A stretch of 38,427 nucleotides of DNA from a virus, in IMG/VR virus record IMGVR_UViG_3300037882_000760, positions 1-38,427 of that record; one strand, 5' to 3'. Within the stretch, counting starts at the first letter, position 1; each line of letters starts with the position of its first letter. A program made the translations under genes and the position numbers. The notes beneath the pieces were generated by a model. It was given only the letters and a program-made list of their open reading frames with translations. It ran no database searches and was not told where the DNA came from. Shown here piece by piece: positions 22,264 to 38,427 of the stretch.

Positions 22264-22832
22264 TTGCTCCACAAAGTCTTTAACGCCTGCTTGGATTTCT
22301 TCTTGTTCGTAATCGTTGTGAGCACATCTTGCTTCATGCCAAGCTCTAATCCTATCGATTTCAAGAAAAAAAAATCAACTATCGAATAAATATCCATCCA
22401 AGGTAATGATTCAATATCACTCACATACTTCTTTGCCTCGGTTGAATTGTATTGCCCCACCTTCATATATTGATAAGCGCACGCCACGATTAACGGATAA
22501 TTGGCGCGCATTACTTCTGTCTGATTAGAGGCTGACACCACTTGCATGGTCAGGGCTTTTATATCTTCAATCAAACCGAAAGGCCAATTGCCTATATCGT
22601 TAGGTAAATTGATTCCTAGAATAGATTCTACTTTGTGGGATTTCTTATCGGGTAGGTCAGAAATAAATCCTATCGATTTAATCAGGTCCATCACCTCTTT
22701 TACTGGCCTTTGCTTTAGCTCGGTCAATGGGATTGAATAAATAATCGATACATAGTCAAGGTTATCACCCCCATCATCCATATTAATGATTAGGTCGTGA
22801 TATTGTTTCCAGCTTAAATCTTTCCAGTTCAT
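22233..22832 (-). CDS. Hypothetical protein downstream of terL; zero-frame product of a candidate frameshift pair
   Basis: 199 aa with an ATGA overlap to terL. Contains GAU UUU UUU UUC (D153-F156). Confidence 0.6.
   Translation of the reverse strand: MNWKDLSWKQYHDLIINMDDGGDNLDYVSIIYSIPLTELKQRPVKEVMDLIKSIGFISDLPDKKSHKVESILGINLPNDIGNWPFGLIEDIKALTMQVVSASNQTEVMRANYPLIVACAYQYMKVGQYNSTEAKKYVSDIESLPWMDIYSIVDFFFLKSIGLELGMKQDVLTTITNKKKSKQALKTLWSKWVYWLRSKL
22366..22374 (-). other. T9 homopolymer; candidate -1 ribosomal frameshift or transcriptional slippage site
   Basis: A9 on the plus strand, giving U UUU UUU UU in the mRNA. The -1 frame opens precisely here and runs 100 codons to the ATGA junction at 22072-22075. 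Confidence 0.45.
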
Positions 22833-24262
22833 CGTCTTCGGTGTAGTTGTATTTGAGGTTGTAAAATCTTGTTTACTAATTTATCAATTGCCATTATCGC
22901 ACAATCCACCAAGTCGTCATGTTGCCCGTTAGGGAAGCTTGTAAGCTGATGAATAAATAAATCATTCCATAAAGCTTTTTTAATCTTAACCCTTTTCGTT
23001 TCAAATACCGAGCTTACCGCGTGTAACCTTGTAATCTTGTCGCTTTCTGGTGCCTTGTCTTCAATGATGTTTATTCCGCTAATCGCGCGCAACTGTTGAA
23101 CTATACTTTTACCGCTTGCTTTAGGTTCCACATAAAAGCGGCTCATTACGTTTGCCCCGTTTTCAGTCCAGACCTCTTTAATCTTATCGCACAACTGAGG
23201 GAACTCTAAGCGCAAGTTGTAAACGTTCAATATGTAAATGTCATTATTTATTATCTTAAATGCAATAATGCCCGTGGCATCGTTGGAGGTCTTAGCGGTA
23301 TATGCGGTATCGGCTACGAATAAAACGGGGCTATTGTTTGCGGGCTCAAAGTCAATCACTTCTAACCATTCGCTTTTAATAATGTTACCGCCTTCACTAA
23401 TCGGGCTTTGCTGATATAGGGAGCTAAAAGTCTTTTGGCTTAGTTCTTTGGCCTCGTATAACCTTTGCAAGCTGTGACGATTTGGCCATAAGGCTTCCCC
23501 TATTTGCCTAGGGTCTTCTTTGTTTAAATCGTCCACCTTTATAGCTGGCAACATTAAGACAGTCCAGTCATTTTCCAAAGCAAGTAAACGCCCTGCGAGG
23601 TCGTCTTCATGCCAACGGGTCATTGTTAGTAATTGTTGGCTATCGTTATGTAATCGGGTTTTTAAAACAGAAACGTACCACTCCCAAACGTTATCCCTTA
23701 CGCGTTGAGAATAGGCATCCATTGCATCTTTAACGGGGTCATCGATTATTGATATATCGGCAGGTGTTCCCGTTAATGAGCCACCAACACCAACGGACTT
23801 ATAGAAGCCTCTATGCTTTACGATTTCAAATATATCAGCGTTACGAAGATACGAACCTGCCGCAGCATTCTTAACGTTTGAACCGTTCAATAATGTATCT
23901 GGGAATAGTTCTCGGTACTCTTCGCTATCAATACCCCTTTGAACATCTCTATTAAATGCACTCGATAGGTCTGATGAATAAGAAGCCCCTACTATCTTCT
24001 TTGTTGGGTACTTCCCTAGTATGTAGGCTGGCAGCTTCCTTGATACTAATTCGCTTTTGCCATGTTGAGGAGGCATGAAGACCGCAAGCTTTTGAATATC
24101 GCCTTTGATGAACCTATCTAGGTACGAGCATAGCAGTAAATGGTGCCAGTTGAATTGATAGTCTGGCTTGGTATGCCTTACGAACTCGGACATTGACCGC
24201 CTTGCTTGCTCGTGCTTAATCTGCTGGAGAATGTTGTTTGGCAGGTTCATTGTGTTAACCAT
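22829..24262 (-). CDS. terL: Terminase large subunit
   Basis: The track ORF starts at TTG (24295); the first ATG is at 24262. Walker A-like FMPPQHGKSE, TMTRWHEDD, and a C-terminal nuclease part FVADTAYTAK...HDDLVDC. Confidence 0.9.
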   Translation of the reverse strand: MVNTMNLPNNILQQIKHEQARRSMSEFVRHTKPDYQFNWHHLLLCSYLDRFIKGDIQKLAVFMPPQHGKSELVSRKLPAYILGKYPTKKIVGASYSSDLSSAFNRDVQRGIDSEEYRELFPDTLLNGSNVKNAAAGSYLRNADIFEIVKHRGFYKSVGVGGSLTGTPADISIIDDPVKDAMDAYSQRVRDNVWEWYVSVLKTRLHNDSQQLLTMTRWHEDDLAGRLLALENDWTVLMLPAIKVDDLNKEDPRQIGEALWPNRHSLQRLYEAKELSQKTFSSLYQQSPISEGGNIIKSEWLEVIDFEPANNSPVLFVADTAYTAKTSNDATGIIAFKIINNDIYILNVYNLRLEFPQLCDKIKEVWTENGANVMSRFYVEPKASGKSIVQQLRAISGINIIEDKAPESDKITRLHAVSSVFETKRVKIKKALWNDLFIHQLTSFPNGQHDDLVDCAIMAIDKLVNKILQPQIQLHRRR

Positions 24263-24295
24263 TTTTTTTTGCGATAGGTAATCCAAATTTAACAA

Positions 24296-25065
24296 ATGTT
24301 TGATTTCATTAGCCTAAAACAATATCGCTTACTTTTTCGGGCTATCCTATTAACTTATATCGATTCTATTAAACCTACCGCGCTAACTCAAAGATTCTCA
24401 ATTTCTATTAACGGCCATTTATACAAATCGAAAAAAGTAACGATAACTTTTTTCTCGGCTCCTAATACAAATGTTGATTTTCTGATAAAGACTTTCGGTA
24501 ACTCAAAGATTCTAAAATTTGTATAATCTTGATTTATACAAACTGAAAAAATAATCAGTTGTTAACTTTTAAGATTTCTGTAAATGTATTAATATTTGTA
24601 TAGATTTCTGTAATTAACACGAACAAAAAAGGCCATTTAAACGCAATAAAGGCACTTTTTTAGGCTCCTTATTAATTCTATTAATTTCTATTAAAGAGTA
24701 CTGATTGTATTAACGTCATTTTGCTAACTCAAAGATTATTTTATACAAATTCATTTAAAGTATTTCTAATGAAATAATCTTATCGAAAGCTTATCAGCGA
24801 TTTCTATAAACTTCTATCAATTTCTGATAAACGGATTTGATAACCGAAGGATTATTTTAATAGAATCCGACAGGCTGATTTCTGTTAAAATAAAGTTGTC
24901 GTTACTTTTTGGCCAAATTCTATAAACTTATCAAAGTTTCATTAGCTTGGGCTCGCTAACTCGCGTTAAGTCCTGACATTTTCTTTATCGAGGGATTCTG
25001 TATAACCATAAGATTATTTAGCAATTTCGCTGAATCCTATTAATTCAATACGATTTCATTAACAA
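24296..25065. repeat. Gene-free 770-bp array of short degenerate repeats between terS and terL (candidate pac/recognition, origin or regulatory region)
   Basis: About 21 same-orientation copies of (G)ATT(T/C)C(T/A)NTWA(A), plus one inverted copy (24857-24866). CTAACTCAAAGATT occurs 3 times and TTATACAAA 3 times. Minus-strand frames are full of stop codons. Confidence 0.85.
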
Positions 25066-25500
25066 TCACGAATTACCGCTGGTTGAATCACTTATTGCCT
25101 TTGATAGGATACTTAGCTCCGAATCGCTCAATTTAGTCAGGTCAATGTTTTGTGTCTTGATTGCGCCTCCATCGGCTCCCGTGTGTTCTAAGCTTACCTT
25201 GTCACCGAACTTCTTAGGGGCATACTTTGAAGCCTTCCAACGGTAATGACTTGCCAACTCTCTGGCCCTTGTCATTTCGATAGGGTCTTTTTCCGCTTCT
25301 CTAATAACTTTTTCCGCTAAGTCTGAATAAGATTCGGCTGCATCCTGTTTAGCTTCGCGCACGCGCGCGGAATGGGCCTCATTATTAATAAAATTACGAA
25401 ATGTTGTGTATGGCTGTTGATAAAAGTTGGCTATATCGTGGTTTGACTTACCCGAAAGAATCAGCTCAATCACTTCTTCAATATCAAATGGCCGTTTCAT
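25066..25500 (-). CDS. terS: Terminase small subunit
   Basis: 144 aa. N-terminal HTH (SNHDIANFYQQPYTTFRNFI), then YSDLAEKVIREAE...RARELASHYRWKASKYAPKKFGDK, typical of small terminases. Confidence 0.75.
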   Translation of the reverse strand: MKRPFDIEEVIELILSGKSNHDIANFYQQPYTTFRNFINNEAHSARVREAKQDAAESYSDLAEKVIREAEKDPIEMTRARELASHYRWKASKYAPKKFGDKVSLEHTGADGGAIKTQNIDLTKLSDSELSILSKAISDSTSGNS

Positions 25501-25541
25501 AAGCTAGTTAGTTTCTCTGCCAATTTACGCAATTTCTCTGG

Positions 25542-25721
25542 TTATCCTGCTAGTTTATTGTCAGGAATATGAGTGAGTACTTCTTTCATTTCGGCTATTA
25601 GGTATTCTTTTTTACTTTCTTTAGTAAGGTGTTCAAACACTATACCCCTATCTTGCATAGCCGTTTTAATTGGATTACCAATGTAGGTTATTCTATCGCC
25701 TTCTTTGAATTGGTATTTCAT
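25542..25721 (-). CDS. Hypothetical small protein (59 aa)
   Basis: Translated by hand: MKYQFKEGDRITYIGNPIKTAMQDRGIVFEHLTKESKKEYLIAEMKEVLTHIPDNKLAG. Fills an otherwise empty gap. Confidence 0.4.
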   Translation of the reverse strand: MKYQFKEGDRITYIGNPIKTAMQDRGIVFEHLTKESKKEYLIAEMKEVLTHIPDNKLAG

Positions 25722-26977: not shown

Positions 26978-27029
26978 TTACTCATGCCTCGAATCCGAAA
27001 CGGCAAAGTATATGAACGGTAGTATTCTT

Positions 27030-27377
27030 TTATGAACGGTTGAAGTAGCTAGTAACGGCTAACTGAAAATCTTTCAGGCTCCGACAAGTGATAACACAAT
27101 TACCGTAATCCATAAGCCTCAATCCTATTTCTTTCTGCTTTGGTGATAATACACCCTTTGCGGTTTTTAGCTCAATGTATAAGCTATGATACCCTTTTGA
27201 ATCCATAGGTATGTGAAGGTCTGGCACTCCAGCCGTTACCCCCTCCGCTTTCATAATGCTTGCGGTAATCACTCCACGCTTACCACCGTTCGGGATAGCA
27301 TAGATAAGTTTCTTCGGGTGTGCTAATCGAAACCATTTAACACATTGAATCTGCAATTTACTTTCTTCGTGTTTCAT
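27030..27377 (-). CDS. VRR-NUC domain nuclease
   Basis: 115 aa. EESKLQIQCVKWF...IPNGG...GVTAGVPDLHI...LYIELKTAKGVLSPKQ matches the VRR-NUC pattern (E...PD...ExK). Confidence 0.85.
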   Translation of the reverse strand: MKHEESKLQIQCVKWFRLAHPKKLIYAIPNGGKRGVITASIMKAEGVTAGVPDLHIPMDSKGYHSLYIELKTAKGVLSPKQKEIGLRLMDYGNCVITCRSLKDFQLAVTSYFNRS

Positions 27378-27600
27378 AATTCAATTTAGTGAATTTCGTC
27401 AATGTTCGTACCTCACACAGCCGATAACTTACGCTAATCGCAAGGCTATCGCCCAGCGACTAGCTAACAGTTATAGGCAAGCCTTCCACGCTCAACCTCA
27501 CGCAAGGCCAGCCAATAACAATTAATATGAATAATGTGCTGTTCGGCTGTGCTTTCATGCTCTTGAGGTCAATAAAAAGAAAAACCCACCCGCCTTAAAA

Positions 27601-27996
27601 TCATAAAGTTTTCTTAATGCCTTCTAAAGTTTGCAATAGATTTATTACATCACTTACAAATTCTTTAAACTCAACCTCGCTACTAGATGAAATTTCTTTT
27701 TTTAACCACGAAGTGTAAATTTCTTGTAGGTTGTACTTACACTCATCACATACATTTTCTTTACGTATTGAAGTGATTTCAAATTCATTTATTACTATTG
27801 TTAATTGATAACAATCGCCATCAACTACTAAGCAATAAAATCTATTATATCCATCTTTTGTATTTTTAAAGAAATGCCTACCATCTTTAATATTGTGTAT
27901 TGTTTCTTTAGTTACGGTTATTTTTTCTATAAATGTTATCATAAAAACCTTATTAAATTCAAATACAATTTGGCAATTCATTAAGATGTATTCCAT
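27601..27996 (-). CDS. Hypothetical protein
   Basis: 131-aa ORF. An alternative ATG at 27942 would remove the 38-nt overlap with the upstream gene. Confidence 0.5.
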   Translation of the reverse strand: MEYILMNCQIVFEFNKVFMITFIEKITVTKETIHNIKDGRHFFKNTKDGYNRFYCLVVDGDCYQLTIVINEFEITSIRKENVCDECKYNLQEIYTSWLKKEISSSSEVEFKEFVSDVINLLQTLEGIKKTL

Positions 27997-28442: not shown

Positions 28443-30383
28443 TTACCAAGGTGCCTTAACATCTTCTTTCAGTATCTCCTCCATTGACTTGGGAGGGTTT
28501 AAAGGCTTATCGAAATTGTTAGGTACTATTGGGAGCTGGTAAGGCTTTTGTGCCGGCTCATCCGGGTAATCTGTGTATTTTTCTTGCTTAACCACTTCCT
28601 TAATATTTTTATACAGATTATCTACGTGCATATTTTGTGCAGAATATCCATGTTTATGGGCATGATAATATAGACTAAAATTGCCAATCTTACCAATACC
28701 CTTTGGCTTTGCTTTCTGAATAAAGATAACACTTTCATTTTCCTCATAGGGTAGGCCATGTTCATTTTTTAAAAAACTTGGTGGCCTCCACACGCTAATC
28801 ATAGCCATTCCTTTACGGCTCCATGATTGCCCACCGGCAACCTCACGATAAGAAGCCGGAGGGTAATATCTTTTAACTGCCCCGGATTCGGTCTTTTCGC
28901 TTTTAATTTCTTGGTCTTGTACGTGGGTAATTATGCAGTTGTGCCATTTCTTCTCTCTAGCTACTTCCCGGATAAAACCTAAAATGCGCTCTAAGTATAA
29001 ATCCTGTCGGCCATCTTCTTTAAAACTATGTGCCAATTCATTCCAAGGGTCAATCGTGGTAGTGTGTATCTTAACGTTGTAAACACGCTCTATTATTTCG
29101 CAATACTCATAAAACTCCTCAACATTAAGAACGTTCTTCTCCGGATCAATAACAATAAAATACTGGTCAACAAACTTTTCAGCGGCCTTCCTTTTTGCGT
29201 CTGTCATTTTATTGCCGTGTGTATTGTAGAAATCAGATTGAGCGTATATTTCTATCAACTCAATAAAAATCTCTTCAGCTCGGCCTGTTTCCGGGCTAAA
29301 TATAGCGTGTCTTATGCCATGCTTATGTGATAGGTTTACTAAAAATTGAAACCATACTTGAGATTTACCGGAATAAGGAGCGCCATAAATATAGGTTGTG
29401 CATCCGGTTTTAACGGTATAAAGTTCATCAGCTTCTGGGTATCCTACATCGTAACCCTTTTGTAATCCATTAACCCATAAATCGTCTATGCTTTCACGTT
29501 TATCAGCAAGGGTATAATAAATCTTACCATACTTTTCAGAAATCTCTATTTCCTTTTTAAGACCTTGAATATCTGATATAGGGCTTTGCATACCATTAGA
29601 AACACCATCCAAAATAGCTTTCTGATTTAATTTGAAATCTTGAGGGTCTAATATATAAGCATCTTGCTCAAGTAATCTTATTGCCTCCTCGTATGCTATT
29701 TTACCGGATGCAATATAACCACCCATCAACCTGGAAGCATTTAAAATTCTAGTATGCCTTTCACCGGGTACCGCTTTTCTTAAATAGTTCAGAACCTTGT
29801 TTGCCGCTCCGTAATCATTGGCAAAAAAGTTTTCAAGATTTAATTTCTTTGGCTCTGGGTCTTTGTGTGTTTCTTTCCATATTTGGCTTTTATCGTTAAT
29901 GTATAAATCCGGATCGTAGCAATAAAAACAAAGTCTTGATATATCTTTCCCGGAGGTGTCAAGCTCTTTGTATCTGGCCATAAAAGAGTAATAATACTTT
30001 TTGTATTCAGTATCAGATTTTACAATAGGTATTTTTACCAACATTTTAAGCCCGTGGCCGCTCGGACTTTCAAAAAAGGCATAAGTATATGGGTCTTGCT
30101 TAAATCGTTCTTTGTATGCGTTTAAATCGCTTAGTTTATCAAAGTCTAAAATCATTAACCCGGATGCCTCATTAAGATTACTATTTGAGCGTTCTGAAAA
30201 TGTACCTCCAAAGCAAACAGCCGGCAAAGACTTTTTAGCGGTAGCAAGTGATGCCGGGTCTAAGTTCTTAAAATTACCTATTCCGTAATCATCATTCGTT
30301 TTAAACTTCTTTAATACCGCTGATACTTGCACATCGTAAGGGGCTTTGGTATCTAGTATGTTTTTAAATATTGATACTTTCAT
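28443..30383 (-). CDS. Primase-helicase (VirE-N/BT4734-like N-terminal domain plus SF4/RecA-like helicase)
   Basis: 646 aa. PAVCFGGTFSERS...LMILDFDKL...FFESPSGHGLKMLVKI is the VirE_N pattern. Walker A is IYGAPYSGKSQ and Walker B is HTTTIDPWNE. Confidence 0.85.
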   Translation of the reverse strand: MKVSIFKNILDTKAPYDVQVSAVLKKFKTNDDYGIGNFKNLDPASLATAKKSLPAVCFGGTFSERSNSNLNEASGLMILDFDKLSDLNAYKERFKQDPYTYAFFESPSGHGLKMLVKIPIVKSDTEYKKYYYSFMARYKELDTSGKDISRLCFYCYDPDLYINDKSQIWKETHKDPEPKKLNLENFFANDYGAANKVLNYLRKAVPGERHTRILNASRLMGGYIASGKIAYEEAIRLLEQDAYILDPQDFKLNQKAILDGVSNGMQSPISDIQGLKKEIEISEKYGKIYYTLADKRESIDDLWVNGLQKGYDVGYPEADELYTVKTGCTTYIYGAPYSGKSQVWFQFLVNLSHKHGIRHAIFSPETGRAEEIFIELIEIYAQSDFYNTHGNKMTDAKRKAAEKFVDQYFIVIDPEKNVLNVEEFYEYCEIIERVYNVKIHTTTIDPWNELAHSFKEDGRQDLYLERILGFIREVAREKKWHNCIITHVQDQEIKSEKTESGAVKRYYPPASYREVAGGQSWSRKGMAMISVWRPPSFLKNEHGLPYEENESVIFIQKAKPKGIGKIGNFSLYYHAHKHGYSAQNMHVDNLYKNIKEVVKQEKYTDYPDEPAQKPYQLPIVPNNFDKPLNPPKSMEEILKEDVKAPW

Positions 30384-31024
30384 TATAGATAATCTTTAAC
30401 ATTGAATTGCTGAATACTTGCTGGCTCTGATAATTCATCTTCCCATGATTTATTAGTCAGATACCTAACCGGGTCTTTTCTGAACTGTTCCACCGGATGC
30501 GATAATACATAATTATCAACGGTTTCAATTATTTTTTCTATTTCAGAATCTTTTAGCTTTAACCATTTTTCTAAGGTTGCCTTCCTTCCTATTTTCTTTT
30601 TATACTTCTCCCAAAACAAATCGAACATCTCTGTCTTTATTTCTATTGTCTTATTTCTATTGTCTTTAAAGTGGGTTACGGTAGAGGTGTCTGTAGAGGT
30701 ACTACTAGAGGTGTCGGTAGGGGTTACGGTAGAGGTTTGAATTTGAACCTCTACTATTTTGAAAGTAGGTAGTTTAATTCTGTTATTTCCGGCTTGATAC
30801 TCTATTAAATTTTCCCCTTCTAACCATAACAAAGATTCATAATACATAGAGTTTGAGCAGCGTGTTTTCGCTGTCATTTGCTCTTTAGTTGCCGGGGTTA
30901 CTTTCCATCTATTCTTATTAACAAGGTCAACCAATGCCAAATAAACATATCCATAATGTAGCTTATACCCATCCCTGTGTATTATGTCATTCCAGAAGTT
31001 ATTTAATATATCAATGTACTGCAT
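30383..31024 (-). CDS. Replication initiator / replisome-organiser-like protein
   Basis: 213 aa. N-terminal winged-helix-like part, a T/S/D linker, and a C-terminal FDLFWEKYKKKIGRK...YLTNKSWEDE motif common in phage replication proteins. Shares one nt with the primase start. Confidence 0.55.
   Translation of the reverse strand: MQYIDILNNFWNDIIHRDGYKLHYGYVYLALVDLVNKNRWKVTPATKEQMTAKTRCSNSMYYESLLWLEGENLIEYQAGNNRIKLPTFKIVEVQIQTSTVTPTDTSSSTSTDTSTVTHFKDNRNKTIEIKTEMFDLFWEKYKKKIGRKATLEKWLKLKDSEIEKIIETVDNYVLSHPVEQFRKDPVRYLTNKSWEDELSEPASIQQFNVKDYL
30669..30754. repeat. Phased 12-bp tandem repeats (GTAGAGGT core x5) ending in a 9-bp perfect palindrome, inside the initiator gene
   Basis: Cores lie at 30681, 30693, 30705 (CTAGAGGT), 30717 (GTAGGGGT) and 30729. 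An inverted copy at 30746-54 gives GTAGAGGTT-N8-AACCTCTAC. Confidence 0.85.
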
Positions 31025-31075: not shown

Positions 31076-31231
31076 TTACTCGGTGCTTATTAACTTACCA
31101 CCATTTATCTGAACCACTTTTAATTCTCCTGCTTTAGCCATCTGAGAAACACGGCCAACGGTTTTATTAATACGCTTTGCGTACTCGGTCAATGTGAATA
31201 GCTTTGTTCTGTCAACTTTTACTGATTCCAT
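31076..31231 (-). CDS. Small HTH DNA-binding protein (excisionase/AlpA-like HTH_17 pattern)
   Basis: Hand-translated, 51 aa: MESVKVDRTKLFTLTEYAKRINKTVGRVSQMAKAGELKVVQINGGKLISTE. Confidence 0.5.
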   Translation of the reverse strand: MESVKVDRTKLFTLTEYAKRINKTVGRVSQMAKAGELKVVQINGGKLISTE

Positions 31232-32983: not shown

Positions 32984-33057
32984 TTTTTTATTTTTTAGTT
33001 TATCAAACCTACTAAAACCGCCCACCGTAGTAAAGTGAACTTTGATGAGCGGTTGAG

Positions 33058-33237
33058 TTATTGTTTAAGTGGTTTTTGGCCTTTTACTACTATGTTAGTA
33101 TATTCTGGTTCACGACCATCACCAACATAATGACTTACTGAAATTGTGGTTCTATTAATATCAAGATTATACTTTTCAACAATAATAGATTTAATATCTT
33201 CTTGATTTAGCTCTATTGTTACATATTCTTTTGCCAT
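33058..33237 (-). CDS. Hypothetical small protein (59 aa)
   Basis: Hand-translated: MAKEYVTIELNQEDIKSIIVEKYNLDINRTTISVSHYVGDGREPEYTNIVVKGQKPLKQ. Confidence 0.45.
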   Translation of the reverse strand: MAKEYVTIELNQEDIKSIIVEKYNLDINRTTISVSHYVGDGREPEYTNIVVKGQKPLKQ

Positions 33238-36142: not shown

Positions 36143-36183
36143 AAATACAACTTACACGAACGGTTGAATGATGTGATGGGTGG
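36143..36183. repeat. 41-bp intergenic repeat, copy 1
   Basis: aaatacaacttacacgaacggttGaatgatgtgatgggtgg, 40/41 identical to 37542-37582. Confidence 0.9.
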
Positions 36184-37541: not shown

Positions 37542-37582
37542 AAATACAACTTACACGAACGGTTCAATGATGTGATGGGTGG
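37542..37582. repeat. 41-bp intergenic repeat, copy 2
   Basis: aaatacaacttacacgaacggttCaatgatgtgatgggtgg. Contains the palindrome GAAC-G-GTTC. Confidence 0.9.
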
Positions 37583-37587
37583 TAAGA

Positions 37588-38073
37588 CTAAATAAACGGC
37601 CTATAATCAATCTCGTTTTTATTTGATTTATTGAGATTGCACTTCTTACAAAGCACTTGAAGATTGAATAGTGATAGCTCTAATTCGGGGTATTTAGACC
37701 GTGGCTTTATATGGTCAACGTGTACCTCTGTGTTTGTTGCTCCACACTTCATACACTTACAACCGTATTTTTTTAAGGTCAGCACTCTTAACGTTTGCCA
37801 TGCCTCTGAATCGTAAAAATGATTTGCACGCCTTTTTTTTATTGGTTCATACTTTTTACCAAAGTCAACTTTAAGCCCTCTAAATCCATGCTTTGTATAT
37901 TCATACAATACCCAATTATATAAGCTGCCAGATGTTTTTAATCCTAAAGCCTTTGCGACTGTTTGAATTGCCACTTTTTCAGATAGGCCGTTTTTACTTT
38001 TGCCTATATTGTTAATACAGAATAGTTTAAACTTTCTTATTAACTCAATGTATAATGTACTTTTATTAGCCAT
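37588..38073 (-). CDS. HNH endonuclease
   Basis: The track ORF starts at TTG (38154) and translates a polypurine tract. The ATG at 38073 gives MANKSTLY... (161 aa). CMKCG...HVDHIKPRSKYP...NLQVLCKKCNLNKSNK is the HNH motif. Confidence 0.85.
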   Translation of the reverse strand: MANKSTLYIELIRKFKLFCINNIGKSKNGLSEKVAIQTVAKALGLKTSGSLYNWVLYEYTKHGFRGLKVDFGKKYEPIKKRRANHFYDSEAWQTLRVLTLKKYGCKCMKCGATNTEVHVDHIKPRSKYPELELSLFNLQVLCKKCNLNKSNKNEIDYRPFI

Positions 38074-38252
38074 AGTTTTCAAAAGAAAAGAAAAGAAGAA
38101 AAACAAGTTTAAGAAATAGAAGAAAACAAAAGAAAAAGCCCCTAAGAAAATCAAAATTAACCGCTTATTCCGTTGTTACATAAGCAAGGCCACCTGACCC
38201 AATGACCGTATTAAGGGCAAAGTTTGGCAATTTCTTTAAAGGCTATAAATGC

Positions 38253-38286
38253 AAAAAGCCCAAACAAGGGGAGCTTTGTCGGGCTT
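38253..38286 (-). terminator. Hairpin plus U-run (second terminator between the late-operon end and the early genes)
   Basis: Minus-strand RNA AAGCCC(GACAAAG)...(CUUGUUU)GGGCUU followed by UUUGC. A 6-bp perfect stem extends with a bulge. Confidence 0.5.
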
Positions 38287-38328
38287 ATTTAAACCTTTCG
38301 GTTTATGGGAGGCTAATCCCAATATCTT

Positions 38329-38427
38329 TTAAACATCGCTCCCCAGCTGCGTTTATTAATACAAATATACAAAAAGTATTTTAACTGTCAATATCATTTT
38401 GCTGATGTTAGCAAATAGATAAAAAAA
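38329..38427. repeat. Terminal direct repeat, copy 2 (identical to 1-99)
   Basis: 99/99 identity with the start of the window. Confidence 0.95.

What the first reader, a model, noticed from the sequence alone, without database searches (positions are those of the whole stretch)
24296..25065. 770-bp gene-free array of about 20 short degenerate repeats splitting terS from terL
Seen: in a genome where most genes overlap by 1-4 nt, the small and large terminase genes are separated by 770 bp. This gap has no minus-strand ORF, and the repeats themselves create TAA/TAG stops. It holds about 21 same-orientation copies of (G)ATT(T/C)C(T/A)NTWA(A). Examples are gatttctgtaaa at 24573 and 24603, aattctattaatttctattaa at 24674-24694, and gatttctataaa-cttctatcaa-tttctgataaa at 24799-24831. 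There is one inverted copy at 24857-24866. CTAACTCAAAGATT occurs 3 times (24383, 24498, 24724) and TTATACAAA 3 times (24418, 24533, 24741). Units 1 and 2 of this composite are about 115 bp apart. Weaker TTTCTCTG copies also lie just upstream of terS (25512, 25533). Established: small terminases recognise arrays of short repeats at pac/cos sites (SPP1 pacL/pacR, lambda cosB R-sites), while iteron arrays also define replication origins and plasmid-like partition sites. Inference: this is a multi-site landing pad for an oligomeric DNA-binding protein. The most likely candidate is the terS ring, giving a pac site placed between terS and terL. Alternatives are an origin, a late-promoter control region, or a source of non-coding RNA.
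Basis: partly seen in the sequence, partly recalled or inferred. Interest (0 to 1): 0.65.

Follow-up and report, generated by a model that had tools for sequence, protein, structure and literature searches.

The report
Phased repeat array splitting phage terminase genes
An uncultured phage carries an 803-bp gene-free insert between its two DNA-packaging genes, built from seven decayed ~115-bp repeats holding 18 same-direction copies of a short motif; its closest relatives lack it, so it looks like an add-on protein-binding platform, most likely a control region for the late genes rather than an essential packaging site.

Summary
With terL starting at ATG 24262, the gap between terS (25066-25500) and terL is 803 bp (24263-25065), 28% GC, with no ORF on the gene strand. 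It consists of about seven very degenerate tandem units of ~115-116 bp. These carry 18 same-strand copies of nnAWTTCTRTWAAn; a simpler consensus count gives 12 copies against 1.5 expected in shuffles. The sites lie on a ~9.75-bp lattice.

Four related contigs (L052, L055, L377, L376) have terS overlapping terL, as do about three quarters of 91 loci with this terS family. The array is therefore a lineage-specific insertion, not a conserved packaging element.

A better origin candidate lies inside the replication-initiator gene (30632-30737). No tRNA, Rfam family or conserved RNA fold was found.

The array ends in a Bacteroidota-type -7 box (TAAATTTG, 24291-24284), 21 nt before terL. Three upstream units keep a near-copy of that box in register, and a terminator-like hairpin sits mid-array. 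Similar TAGGAT motifs flank promoters in relatives.

Best reading (about 0.35): an amplified promoter/operator module that recruits a cooperative DNA-binding protein to control the late operon. A terS/pac platform (about 0.22) is not excluded. Function is untested.

The parts
24263..25065 (.). Whole gene-free array (803 bp, GC 0.28) between the terS stop and the terL ATG
24268..24382 (+). Unit U1 of the ~115-bp higher-order repeat, proximal to terL
   Evidence: Autocorrelation lags at 115/116, 226, 341/342, 573 and 690; 7-unit alignment with 49% mean column identity
24383..24497 (+). Unit U2
24498..24612 (+). Unit U3
24613..24723 (+). Unit U4. It lacks the P element and carries the strongest hairpin.
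24724..24839 (+). Unit U5
24840..24954 (+). Unit U6
24955..25065 (+). Unit U7, proximal to terS and the most decayed
24341..24373 (+). Two M sites (GCTATCCTATTAAC, TCGATTCTATTAAA). M is nnAWTTCTRTWAAn on the + strand and TTWAYAGAAWT on the gene strand.
   Evidence: PWM scan
24399..24412 (+). M site CAATTTCTATTAAC
24456..24489 (+). Two M sites (CGGCTCCTAATACA, GATTTTCTGATAAA)
24572..24615 (+). Two M sites 30 bp apart (AGATTTCTGTAA, two copies)
24672..24714 (+). Three M sites at 10- and 19-bp spacing
24760..24773 (+). M site GTATTTCTAATGAA
24798..24831 (+). Three M sites at exact 10-bp spacing
24876..24889 (+). M site TGATTTCTGTTAAA
24914..24927 (+). M site CAAATTCTATAAAC
24992..25005 (+). M site GGGATTCTGTATAA
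25031..25044 (+). M site TGAATCCTATTAAT
24857..24867 (-). The single inverted M copy (GATTCTATTAA on the minus strand)
   Evidence: (I15)
24383..24396 (-). P element: AATCTTTGAGTTAG on the gene strand, a one-mismatch copy of a TAnnTTTG -7 box
24498..24511 (-). P element, second copy
24724..24737 (-). P element, third copy
24284..24291 (-). Consensus Bacteroidota-type -7 box TAAATTTG. It lies 21 nt upstream of the terL ATG and is in register with the P elements.
24620..24665 (-). Strongest hairpin of the array (-14 kcal/mol, z = -2.2). It is flanked by an A-run and a U-run, so it looks like a bidirectional terminator.
   Evidence: (I17)
24518..24542 (.). Palindrome TTTGTATAA-N7-TTATACAAA. The same K element also occurs at 24419 and 24741.
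25066..25500 (-). terS, Sf6 gp1-like
22829..24262 (-). terL, Terminase_6N/6C. The database gene call starts at ATG 24250.

Best explanation
The 803-bp gap is a lineage-specific insertion into an ancestrally overlapping terS/terL junction. It is a tandemly amplified and then diverged ~115-bp module, present in seven units.

What has been kept is not the bulk sequence. It is (i) 18 head-to-tail copies of an 8-9-bp core, TTCTRTWA(A) on the + strand, often 10, 19-20 or 38-39 bp apart, and (ii) a promoter-like -7 element.

Proposed mechanism (inferred):
- A sequence-specific DNA-binding protein, from the phage or the host, binds these sites cooperatively and forms an extended nucleoprotein complex.
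- That complex governs the promoter at the terL-proximal end, TAAATTTG at 24291-24284. That promoter lacks a -33 TTG and has an M-like site in its place.
- The mid-array hairpin ends transcription coming from the terS operon.
- The net effect is to uncouple terL and about 24 kb of structural genes from the upstream operon and put them under separate, factor-dependent control.

Shown: the anatomy, the statistics, the insertion status and the promoter-like elements. Inferred: protein binding, promoter and terminator activity, and the regulatory role.
For: Insertion status. L052 is homologous on both sides (74% nt in terS, 80% nt in terL), yet its terS stop overlaps the terL start by 17 nt. L055, L377 and L376 also have overlapping terS/terL. 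Among 91 terS-family loci, about three quarters have 10 nt or less between terS and terL, and none has a non-coding repeat array there.

Motif reality.

Phasing. Rayleigh R = 0.85 at 9.75 bp for the 18 sites, against a null 99th percentile of 0.66. R = 0.86 for an independent 12-site definition. This favours a DNA-level function over an RNA-level one.

Promoter evidence.
- TAnnTTTG boxes are twice as frequent on the gene strand. About 9 of 28 gene-strand boxes sit in the few intergenic spacers, mostly 14-24 nt (range 3-116 nt) before start codons. One of them is 24291-24284, 21 nt before the terL ATG.
- In the unit alignment this box is in register with AATCTTTG in U2, U3 and U5.
- The strongest hairpin, with flanking A- and U-runs, lies mid-array.

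Relatives use similar motifs at promoters.
- L376 has TAGGATAAAG about 2.5 times at 10-bp spacing, abutting a -7 box.
- L376 also has TTAATAGGAT-ATTATCCTATA abutting another -7 box.
- L055 has TTAGGAATAT at the orthologous promoter.
- The 10-mer TTAATAGGAT occurs in the window only in the array, twice.

Other promoter classes in this genome have their own upstream elements, which is consistent with a temporal cascade.
Against: - No transcription data exist. The -33 element is absent, and the three upstream P elements deviate from TAnnTTTG at position 1.
- Eighteen sites over 700 bp is far more than known phage promoters need.
- No binding protein is identified. The only candidates are terS itself, a 51-aa Xis/Cox-like wHTH ORF (31076-31231, Pfam E = 4e-4, below the gathering threshold) and a 57-aa HTH ORF.
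- L376's candidate regulator, whose sequence looks like a ribbon-helix-helix protein by eye only, has no detectable homologue in the window.
- The TAGGAT motif of relatives matches only 2 of the 18 sites exactly.
- The Bacteroidota host is inferred from promoter and RBS features only.
- Sub-threshold sites are not phased, and the base-composition spectrum has no 9.75-bp peak. Part of the phasing may be inherited from the duplications.
Confidence: 0.35

Rival explanations
1. Packaging-initiation platform (pac). The Sf6-type terS ring binds the head-to-tail M sites while DNA wraps around it, roughly one ~116-bp unit per ring. This positions terL for the first cut next to its own gene.
For: - The array lies directly between terS and terL.
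- terS is homologous to Sf6 gp1, which I recall as an octameric ring.
- A ring of identical HTH domains predicts direct repeats about one helical turn apart, and about 100 bp of DNA per wrap. The model is in PMC4737164.
- Observed: a ~9.75-bp lattice, 10-bp triplets and 115-116-bp units.
- The DNA is AT-rich with A/T runs.
Against: - The array is absent from L052, L055, L377 and L376, even though L055's terS DNA-binding N-terminus is about 60% identical to the window's (by eye). It is also absent from the terS-terL junction of every one of 91 terS-family loci.
- As far as I recall, known pac sites of P22- and SPP1-type phages lie in or at the start of terS and are 20-300 bp long, not 800 bp.
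- No M-site clustering is seen in the relatives.
Confidence: 0.22
2. Functionless, satellite-like tandem repeat. It was created by slippage or unequal recombination at a recombination-prone module junction and is tolerated because headful packaging has slack.
For: - So far it is a singleton. No similar array turned up in IMG/VR pattern scans or in the loci fetched from IMG/VR, JGI, ENA and Logan.
- The junction is a module-swap point, with Terminase_3 versus Terminase_6 terL behind similar terS genes.
- The units are about 49% identical, which is near saturation.
Against: - Conservation is strongly non-uniform. The M core is about 90% conserved while the flanks are random, and its two halves are coupled (p = 9e-10).
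- Strand orientation is strict, 18 to 1.
- Phase is kept over 690 bp despite heavy substitution.
- Three P elements are 13-14 of 14 identical.
Confidence: 0.13
3. Replication origin, or auxiliary cis-replication region, made of iterons plus AT-rich DNA.
For: Direct repeats in AT-rich, gene-free DNA. From memory, phage P4 has a distant cis-replication region made of ~120-bp direct repeats that carry short iterons.
Against: - A textbook origin arrangement exists elsewhere: about five 12-nt repeats followed by an AT-rich 14-nt repeat, inside the replication-initiator gene (30632-30737 within 30383-31024, phrog_270).
- The array is 5.3 kb from that gene and absent in relatives.
- Cumulative GC skew shows no inflection at the array.
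Confidence: 0.05
4. RNA-level element: an array of small RNAs, or a long leader whose repeated UUAAUAGAAAU motifs sequester an RNA-binding protein.
For: - All motifs are on one strand.
- P elements followed about 60-70 nt later by A-run/hairpin/U-run elements could define short transcripts.
- The plus-strand fold has z = -4.2, though with only 20 shuffles.
Against: - No tRNA and no Rfam family, even at E = 1 or less.
- RNAalifold finds no consensus pairs among the seven units on either strand.
- Six of the seven unit hairpins are no better than shuffles.
- Helical phasing of the sites points to DNA.
- There is no TAnnTTTG box on the plus strand of the gap.
Confidence: 0.06
5. Plasmid-type partition site (parC/tubC-like centromere) for an extrachromosomal prophage.
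For: From memory, arrays of ~10-bp head-to-tail repeats with a superhelical period near 120 bp resemble ParR- and TubR-type centromeres.
Against: No ParA, ParM, TubZ, integrase or repressor-type gene was found among 51 ORFs scanned with Pfam and/or PHROGs. The array is not next to any candidate adaptor gene.
Confidence: 0.02

Closest known systems
SPP1/SF6 pac region (boxA/boxB/boxC direct repeats bound by a terS ring)
   Same: Short direct repeats in bendable AT-rich DNA next to the terminase genes. In that system the region overlaps promoters, and terS binding is proposed to switch between transcription and packaging (PMC4737164).
   Different: SPP1 pac spans the promoters and the start of terS and holds only three sets of direct repeats. 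Here the array is downstream of terS, 803 bp long, has 18 sites in seven higher-order units, and is missing from close relatives.
Binding arrays of P2 Cox / lambda Xis-type winged-helix proteins (head-to-tail boxes about one helical turn apart, protein filament on DNA)
   Same: Same-orientation 9-10-bp boxes at about 10-bp spacing, small phage regulators, and control of promoters. The window encodes a 51-aa ORF with a weak Phage_Cox/wHTH match.
   Different: Those arrays have 3-6 boxes beside attP or an early promoter (from memory). The Cox-like match here is below threshold, and no integrase is present.
ParR/parC and TubR/tubC centromeres
   Same: Tandem ~10-11-bp head-to-tail iterons that are bound cooperatively. 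From memory, the protein-DNA superhelix has a period of about 120 bp, similar to the 116-bp unit (12 x 9.7 bp) seen here.
   Different: No partition NTPase or adaptor gene was found. Centromeres sit at the promoter of their own par operon, not inside a packaging module.
Lambda-type ori (iterons inside the initiator gene plus an AT-rich stretch)
   Same: Direct repeats plus AT-rich DNA.
   Different: That architecture is present elsewhere in this genome (30632-30737). Here the repeats are 9-11 bp rather than about 18-20 bp, and they are far from the initiator gene.
Tandem strong promoters ahead of a long operon (for example T7 A1-A3)
   Same: Several promoter-like elements in one orientation upstream of a long operon, generated by duplication.
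   Different: Only the terL-proximal unit has a consensus -7 box. The array also carries many extra binding sites and an internal terminator-like hairpin.

Membership tests
Phage pac site recognised by terS | Located in or next to the terS gene | tested here: met
   The array starts 1 nt after the terS stop codon.
Phage pac site recognised by terS | Kept, in position if not in sequence, in relatives with a homologous terS | tested here: not met
   L052, L055, L377 and L376 have terS overlapping terL. None of 91 terS-family loci has such an array at the junction.
Phage pac site recognised by terS | Specific terS binding, and a first terminase cut at or near the site | not testable with these tools
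   No reads or proteins are available. The 99-bp terminal overlap of the contig only shows that the assembly closes on itself.
Iteron-type replication origin | Iterons inside or adjacent to the initiator gene, with an AT-rich unwinding element | tested here: not met
   The array is 5.3 kb from the initiator gene (30383-31024). That gene itself contains 12-nt x5 and 14-nt x2.5 repeats plus AT-rich DNA.
Iteron-type replication origin | Origin activity | not testable with these tools
   Cumulative GC skew is monotonic because all genes lie on one strand, so it is uninformative.
Bacteroidota sigma-A promoter (-33 TTG / -7 TAnnTTTG) | TAnnTTTG box at the distance from the start codon usual for this genome | tested here: met
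   TAAATTTG at 24291-24284 lies 21 nt before ATG 24262. Most other intergenic boxes lie 14-24 nt before their starts (range 3-116 nt).
Bacteroidota sigma-A promoter (-33 TTG / -7 TAnnTTTG) | -33 TTG about 19-21 nt upstream of the -7 box | tested here: not met
   No TTG at that spacing. An M-like site, TAATGAAATC, occupies that region instead.
Bacteroidota sigma-A promoter (-33 TTG / -7 TAnnTTTG) | Mapped transcription start | not testable with these tools
   No RNA data are available.
ParR/TubR-type centromere | Array of head-to-tail ~10-bp repeats | tested here: met
ParR/TubR-type centromere | Adjacent partition NTPase and adaptor genes | tested here: not met
   No such family was found among 51 ORFs scanned. 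A few structural-region ORFs were not scanned.
Known structured RNA (Rfam family, tRNA or tmRNA) | Match to a covariance model, or a structure conserved among the units | tested here: not met
   No hit at E = 1 or less, no tRNA, and zero consensus pairs on either strand.
Decayed protein-coding gene or homing-endonuclease remnant | Residual similarity to a protein family, or a gene at this position in relatives | tested here: not met
   Relatives have no DNA at all at this position. The sequence is internally repetitive with a 115-bp period. The only ORF (24296-24526, + strand) has no family match.

The most novel reading that the evidence does not exclude
The array is a sequence-defined, multi-ring packaging 'super-site'. 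Each of the seven ~116-bp units (12 steps of ~9.7 bp, equal to 11 helical turns) wraps one Sf6-type terS ring, like a short chain of nucleosomes. The cassette was acquired as an accessory that changes where and how efficiently headful packaging starts, and at the same time gates the terL promoter. That would make it the first case in which ring geometry can be read directly from a pac sequence.
Probability: 0.15. Interest if true: 0.7.

Novelty: new variant of a known kind. Interest (0 to 1): 0.45.

Why it matters
Phage genomes are compact, and terS/terL are almost always contiguous and translationally coupled. An 803-bp non-coding insert at that point, which keeps only a phased short motif and a promoter-like box, is therefore unusual.

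If the regulatory reading is right, it is a natural example of an operon being split and rewired by a portable promoter/operator cassette in a Bacteroidota-type phage. Late-gene control in that group is essentially unstudied.

If the pac reading is right, it gives a directly testable sequence model for how terS rings read DNA, which is still an open question.

Either way, the fragment is a ready-made probe for fishing out its binding protein.

Tried and rejected
1. DNA similarity searches. The gap and its flanks against 50,697 phage records gave only chance matches of 45 nt or less.
2. Exact-pattern scans of IMG/VR.
   - TAACTCAAAGATTMT gave only single, chance-level matches.
   - The double-motif pattern TTCTATWAA-N1-3-TTCTATWAA gave simple AT-rich repeats in unrelated contigs.
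   - A PWM cluster scan of all 375 fetched loci found at most 6 sites per 800 bp, against 18 here.
3. Searches for relatives.
   - A genome-contig scan with terL gave only two distant or fragmentary hits and no host clue.
   - The 830-aa structural protein has no relative in IMG/VR.
   - The metagenome scan with a terS profile found no relative above about 58% identity.
4. My first 'gap' survey of relatives was an artefact of ORF filtering. It was redone properly, and most apparent gaps turned out to be small ORFs.
5. The L015 motif pair (TTTCTATTAACTTAT) looked like the window's. It is in the opposite orientation relative to the genes and is isolated, so it is probably coincidence.
6. Sigma-70-type promoter and terminator scans were at or below shuffle expectation, and are not appropriate for this host type.
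7. The base-composition Fourier spectrum showed no significant periodicity.
8. I rejected tRNA, Rfam, consensus-structure, CRISPR-like, MITE (no terminal inverted repeats or target duplication seen by eye at the borders) and DGR or type III antitoxin readings (no near-identical 34-36-nt repeats, no RT or toxin gene).
9. No part of the array resembles any other part of the genome.
10. Literature searches found no description of a repeat array between terS and terL.
Full report
**Context**

The window is a complete, circularly closed phage contig: bases 1-99 equal bases 38329-38427. Essentially all genes are on the minus strand and overlap by 1-14 nt.

- ORF 25066-25500(-) is an Sf6 gp1-type small terminase: Pfam PF20901 at 7e-10, PHROG 1482 at 1e-16, PDB 3HEF/4DYC at 8e-8.
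- ORF 22829-24295(-) is a Terminase_6-type large terminase.
- Its likely start is ATG 24262 or 24250, not TTG 24295. The closest relative's terL begins ATGAACCT, which aligns with 24250.
- The gene-free interval is therefore 24263-25065 (803 bp), with GC 0.28 against about 0.37 for the genome. It has no minus-strand ORF of 30 aa or more.

- ATTTCTATTAA (2 mismatches or fewer) occurs 12 times on the + strand of the gap. Dinucleotide shuffles of the gap itself give 1.5 +/- 1.2, with a maximum of 7.
- TTTCT[AG]T[AT]A occurs 7 times in the window, 6 of them in the gap.
- Half of the TTCT tetramers in the gap are followed by RTWA, against 1.8% elsewhere (p = 9e-10).
- An iteratively refined PWM (nnAWTTCTRTWAAn) gives 18 plus-strand sites at 8 bits or more. 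The consensus search finds only one true inverted M copy on the other strand.
- The 'weak copies' upstream of terS are not part of the array. They are codons (EKLRKLAEKL) of gene 25542-25721, which carries an in-frame TAA where L055 has TAT.

**Anatomy**

- *Higher-order repeat.* The short repeats sit inside a higher-order structure. 6-mer autocorrelation peaks at 115/116, 226, 341/342, 573 and 690 bp. Seven units of about 115 bp can be aligned at 49% mean column identity.
- *Unit layout.* Read on the gene strand, a typical unit contains:
  - two or three M sites (TTWAYAGAAWT);
  - an A-run/weak hairpin/T-run element;
  - a K element (TTTGTATAA), once as the palindrome at 24518-24542;
  - a P element (AATCTTTGAGTTAGC, nearly identical in U2, U3 and U5).
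- *Spacing.* Adjacent M sites are 10, 19-20, 30, 38-39, 57-59, 70, 78 and 96 bp apart, all within about 2 bp of a multiple of ~9.7 bp.
- *Phase coherence.* The 18 sites are phase-coherent at 9.75 bp over 690 bp. Rayleigh R is 0.85, against a null 99th percentile of 0.66 and a maximum of 0.84 in 1000 trials. A 12-site definition gives R = 0.86. One unit is 12 lattice steps, or about 11 helical turns.
- *Caveats.* Duplication history inflates this statistic. Sub-threshold sites are not phased, and the raw base-composition spectrum has no 9.75-bp peak.

**Comparative evidence (the most informative result)**

- L052 (Logan contig, terL 90% aa) is homologous on both sides of the junction: 74% nt in terS and 80% nt across terL and downstream. 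Yet its terS stop overlaps the terL ATG by 17 nt.
- L055 and L377 (terS 66%) and the genome-wide relative L376 also have overlapping terS/terL, with a Terminase_3-type terL. L376 is a 38,172-bp contig, about 81% nt identical across roughly 10 kb of structural genes, with the same protein lengths.
- Among 91 loci with this terS family where the next large ORF could be placed, about three quarters have 10 nt or less between the two genes. The longer spacers hold small ORFs or unrelated sequence, never a repeat array.
- The array is thus an insertion of about 0.8 kb in the window's lineage, at a junction that is also a module-swap point. It replaces the last ~7 codons of terS.
- No similar array was found anywhere else.

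**What it is not**

- *Not a tRNA or known RNA family*. No structure is shared by the units on either strand. Six of seven unit hairpins are no better than shuffles. The plus-strand whole-region fold has z = -4.2 with 20 shuffles. This remains unexplained but has no promoter support.
- *Probably not the origin.* The replication-initiator gene (30383-31024, phrog_270), next to a primase/helicase, contains five 12-nt repeats followed by an AT-rich 14-nt repeat. This is the lambda-O arrangement.
- *Not a centromere.* No partition, integrase or repressor genes were detected.
- *Not a decayed gene.* Relatives have nothing there, and the DNA is internally periodic.

**Evidence for a regulatory role**

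The genome shows Bacteroidota-type expression signals. Shine-Dalgarno sequences are rare, leaders are A-rich, and TAnnTTTG boxes are enriched on the gene strand and in intergenic spacers, mostly 14-24 nt before start codons.

- One such box, TAAATTTG (24291-24284), lies 21 nt before the terL ATG, at the last unit of the array. In the unit alignment it is in register with the P elements, whose core AATCTTTG differs from the consensus only at position 1. The amplified module therefore appears to have included a promoter.
- The terL box has no -33 TTG. An M-like site (TAATGAAATC) sits 10 nt upstream instead.
- The only solid hairpin (-14 kcal/mol, z = -2.2), flanked by A- and U-runs, is mid-array.
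- Four other promoters of the genome share a different 41-45-nt upstream element. This implies distinct promoter classes.
- Similar motifs sit at promoters in relatives. L376 has TAGGATAAAG about 2.5 times at 10-bp spacing abutting one -7 box. It also has the palindrome TTAATAGGAT-ATTATCCTATA abutting another, upstream of an 88-aa ORF whose sequence looks like a ribbon-helix-helix protein by eye (not tested against any family). L055 has TTAGGAATAT at the orthologous promoter.
- TTAATAGGAT occurs in the window only in the array, twice.
- This is suggestive, not conclusive. Most window sites read ATAGAAAT or ACAGAAAT, and no orthologous regulator was found.

**Most likely mechanism and rivals**

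- *Preferred model, confidence about 0.35.* The array is an accessory, tandemly amplified promoter/operator cassette.
  - A cooperative DNA-binding protein occupies the head-to-tail, helically phased M sites.
  - It controls the terL promoter.
  - The internal terminator insulates the late operon from the terS operon.
- *pac/terS-ring model, about 0.22.* It fits the location, the direct-repeat geometry and the ~100-bp wrap proposed for terS rings (PMC4737164). It is weakened by the absence of the array from every relative. The two models are not mutually exclusive, since SPP1 pac overlaps promoters.
- *Other readings.* Neutral satellite-like DNA (about 0.13) is disfavoured by the position-specific conservation, strict orientation and preserved phase. 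Origin, RNA and centromere readings are minor.
- *Candidate binders.* These are terS, a 51-aa Xis/Cox-like wHTH ORF (31076-31231; Pfam Phage_Cox E = 4e-4, below threshold; best PDB hit P2 Cox at E = 0.9) and a 57-aa HTH ORF.

**Verdict**

- This is a real and unusual feature, but so far a singleton.
- It is a new variant of the known kind 'phased direct-repeat protein-binding array', in an unusual place and with an unusual higher-order structure.
- Its function is untested.
- Interest is moderate (0.45).

Noticed in passing
window 27417-27612 (minus strand); L376 2845-3043: A ~200-nt GC-richer non-coding stretch is 91% identical between the window and L376, while neighbouring coding DNA is about 81% identical. 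It is a candidate conserved ncRNA or regulatory element, with no Rfam match.
   Followed up: partly
window 37542-37582, 36143-36183, 33032-33072, 26999-27039 (+ coordinates): A 41-45-nt element (gene strand CCACCCATCACATCATTCAACCGTTCGTGTAAGTTG) sits 20-30 nt upstream of four TAnnTTTG boxes. It is also present upstream of an L376 promoter. It looks like a co-regulated promoter class.
   Followed up: partly
window 30632-30737, inside gene 30383-31024: Five 12-nt repeats (ACCTCTACCGTAACCC-like) are followed by an AT-rich 14-nt x2.5 repeat, all inside the replication-initiator gene. This is a lambda-O-like origin candidate. The AT-rich repeat contains AATAGAAAT twice, which resembles the M core and is probably coincidence.
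   Followed up: partly
window 25498-25721: Gene 25542-25721 ends at an in-frame TAA where L055 has TAT. Without that stop it would run on to overlap the terS ATG (ATGA). This could be a nonsense mutation, a sequencing error or read-through.
   Followed up: partly
L015 5170-5690 (also L007, L008); L053 5078-5492: More distant phages of the terL family have a 400-520-bp non-coding region upstream of their unrelated terS genes (P27-like as read by eye in L015; Pfam Terminase_2 in L053). It is packed with phage-specific hexamers: about 13 GTTAC/GTAAC in L015, and GTGAAC/GTTCAC in L053. Repeat-rich non-coding DNA next to the packaging genes recurs with different motifs.
   Followed up: partly
L376 3894-4500; L027 1650-1850: These are GC-rich non-coding stretches that look structured. 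L376 has a tRNA T-arm-like GGGGATTCGAATTCCCCC. L027's stretch lies between terS and terL. Neither has a tRNA, tmRNA or Rfam hit.
   Followed up: partly
window 31076-31231 (minus strand): A 51-aa ORF with a weak excisionase/Cox-like winged-helix signature lies just upstream of the replication-initiator gene. It is a candidate binder of direct repeats.
   Followed up: partly
window 37588-38073 (minus strand): An HNH endonuclease gene lies about 12 kb from the terminase genes, next to the ~350-bp intergenic region that spans the contig ends (roughly 38074-38427 and 1-146). That region holds the genome's only TAnnTTTG box in a non-coding spacer with a properly spaced -33 TTG (38369 = 41).
   Followed up: no
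window 24432-24453 and 24889-24910: A 22-nt, 91% complementary inverted repeat links units U2 and U6. The central part of the A-run/T-run element appears inverted between the two units. Its significance is unknown.
   Followed up: no
P0005, P0054 (terL homologues found): Some homologous large terminases are 736-814 aa long and carry LAGLIDADG/intein domains. This shows that the terL family is a frequent target of mobile elements.
   Followed up: no
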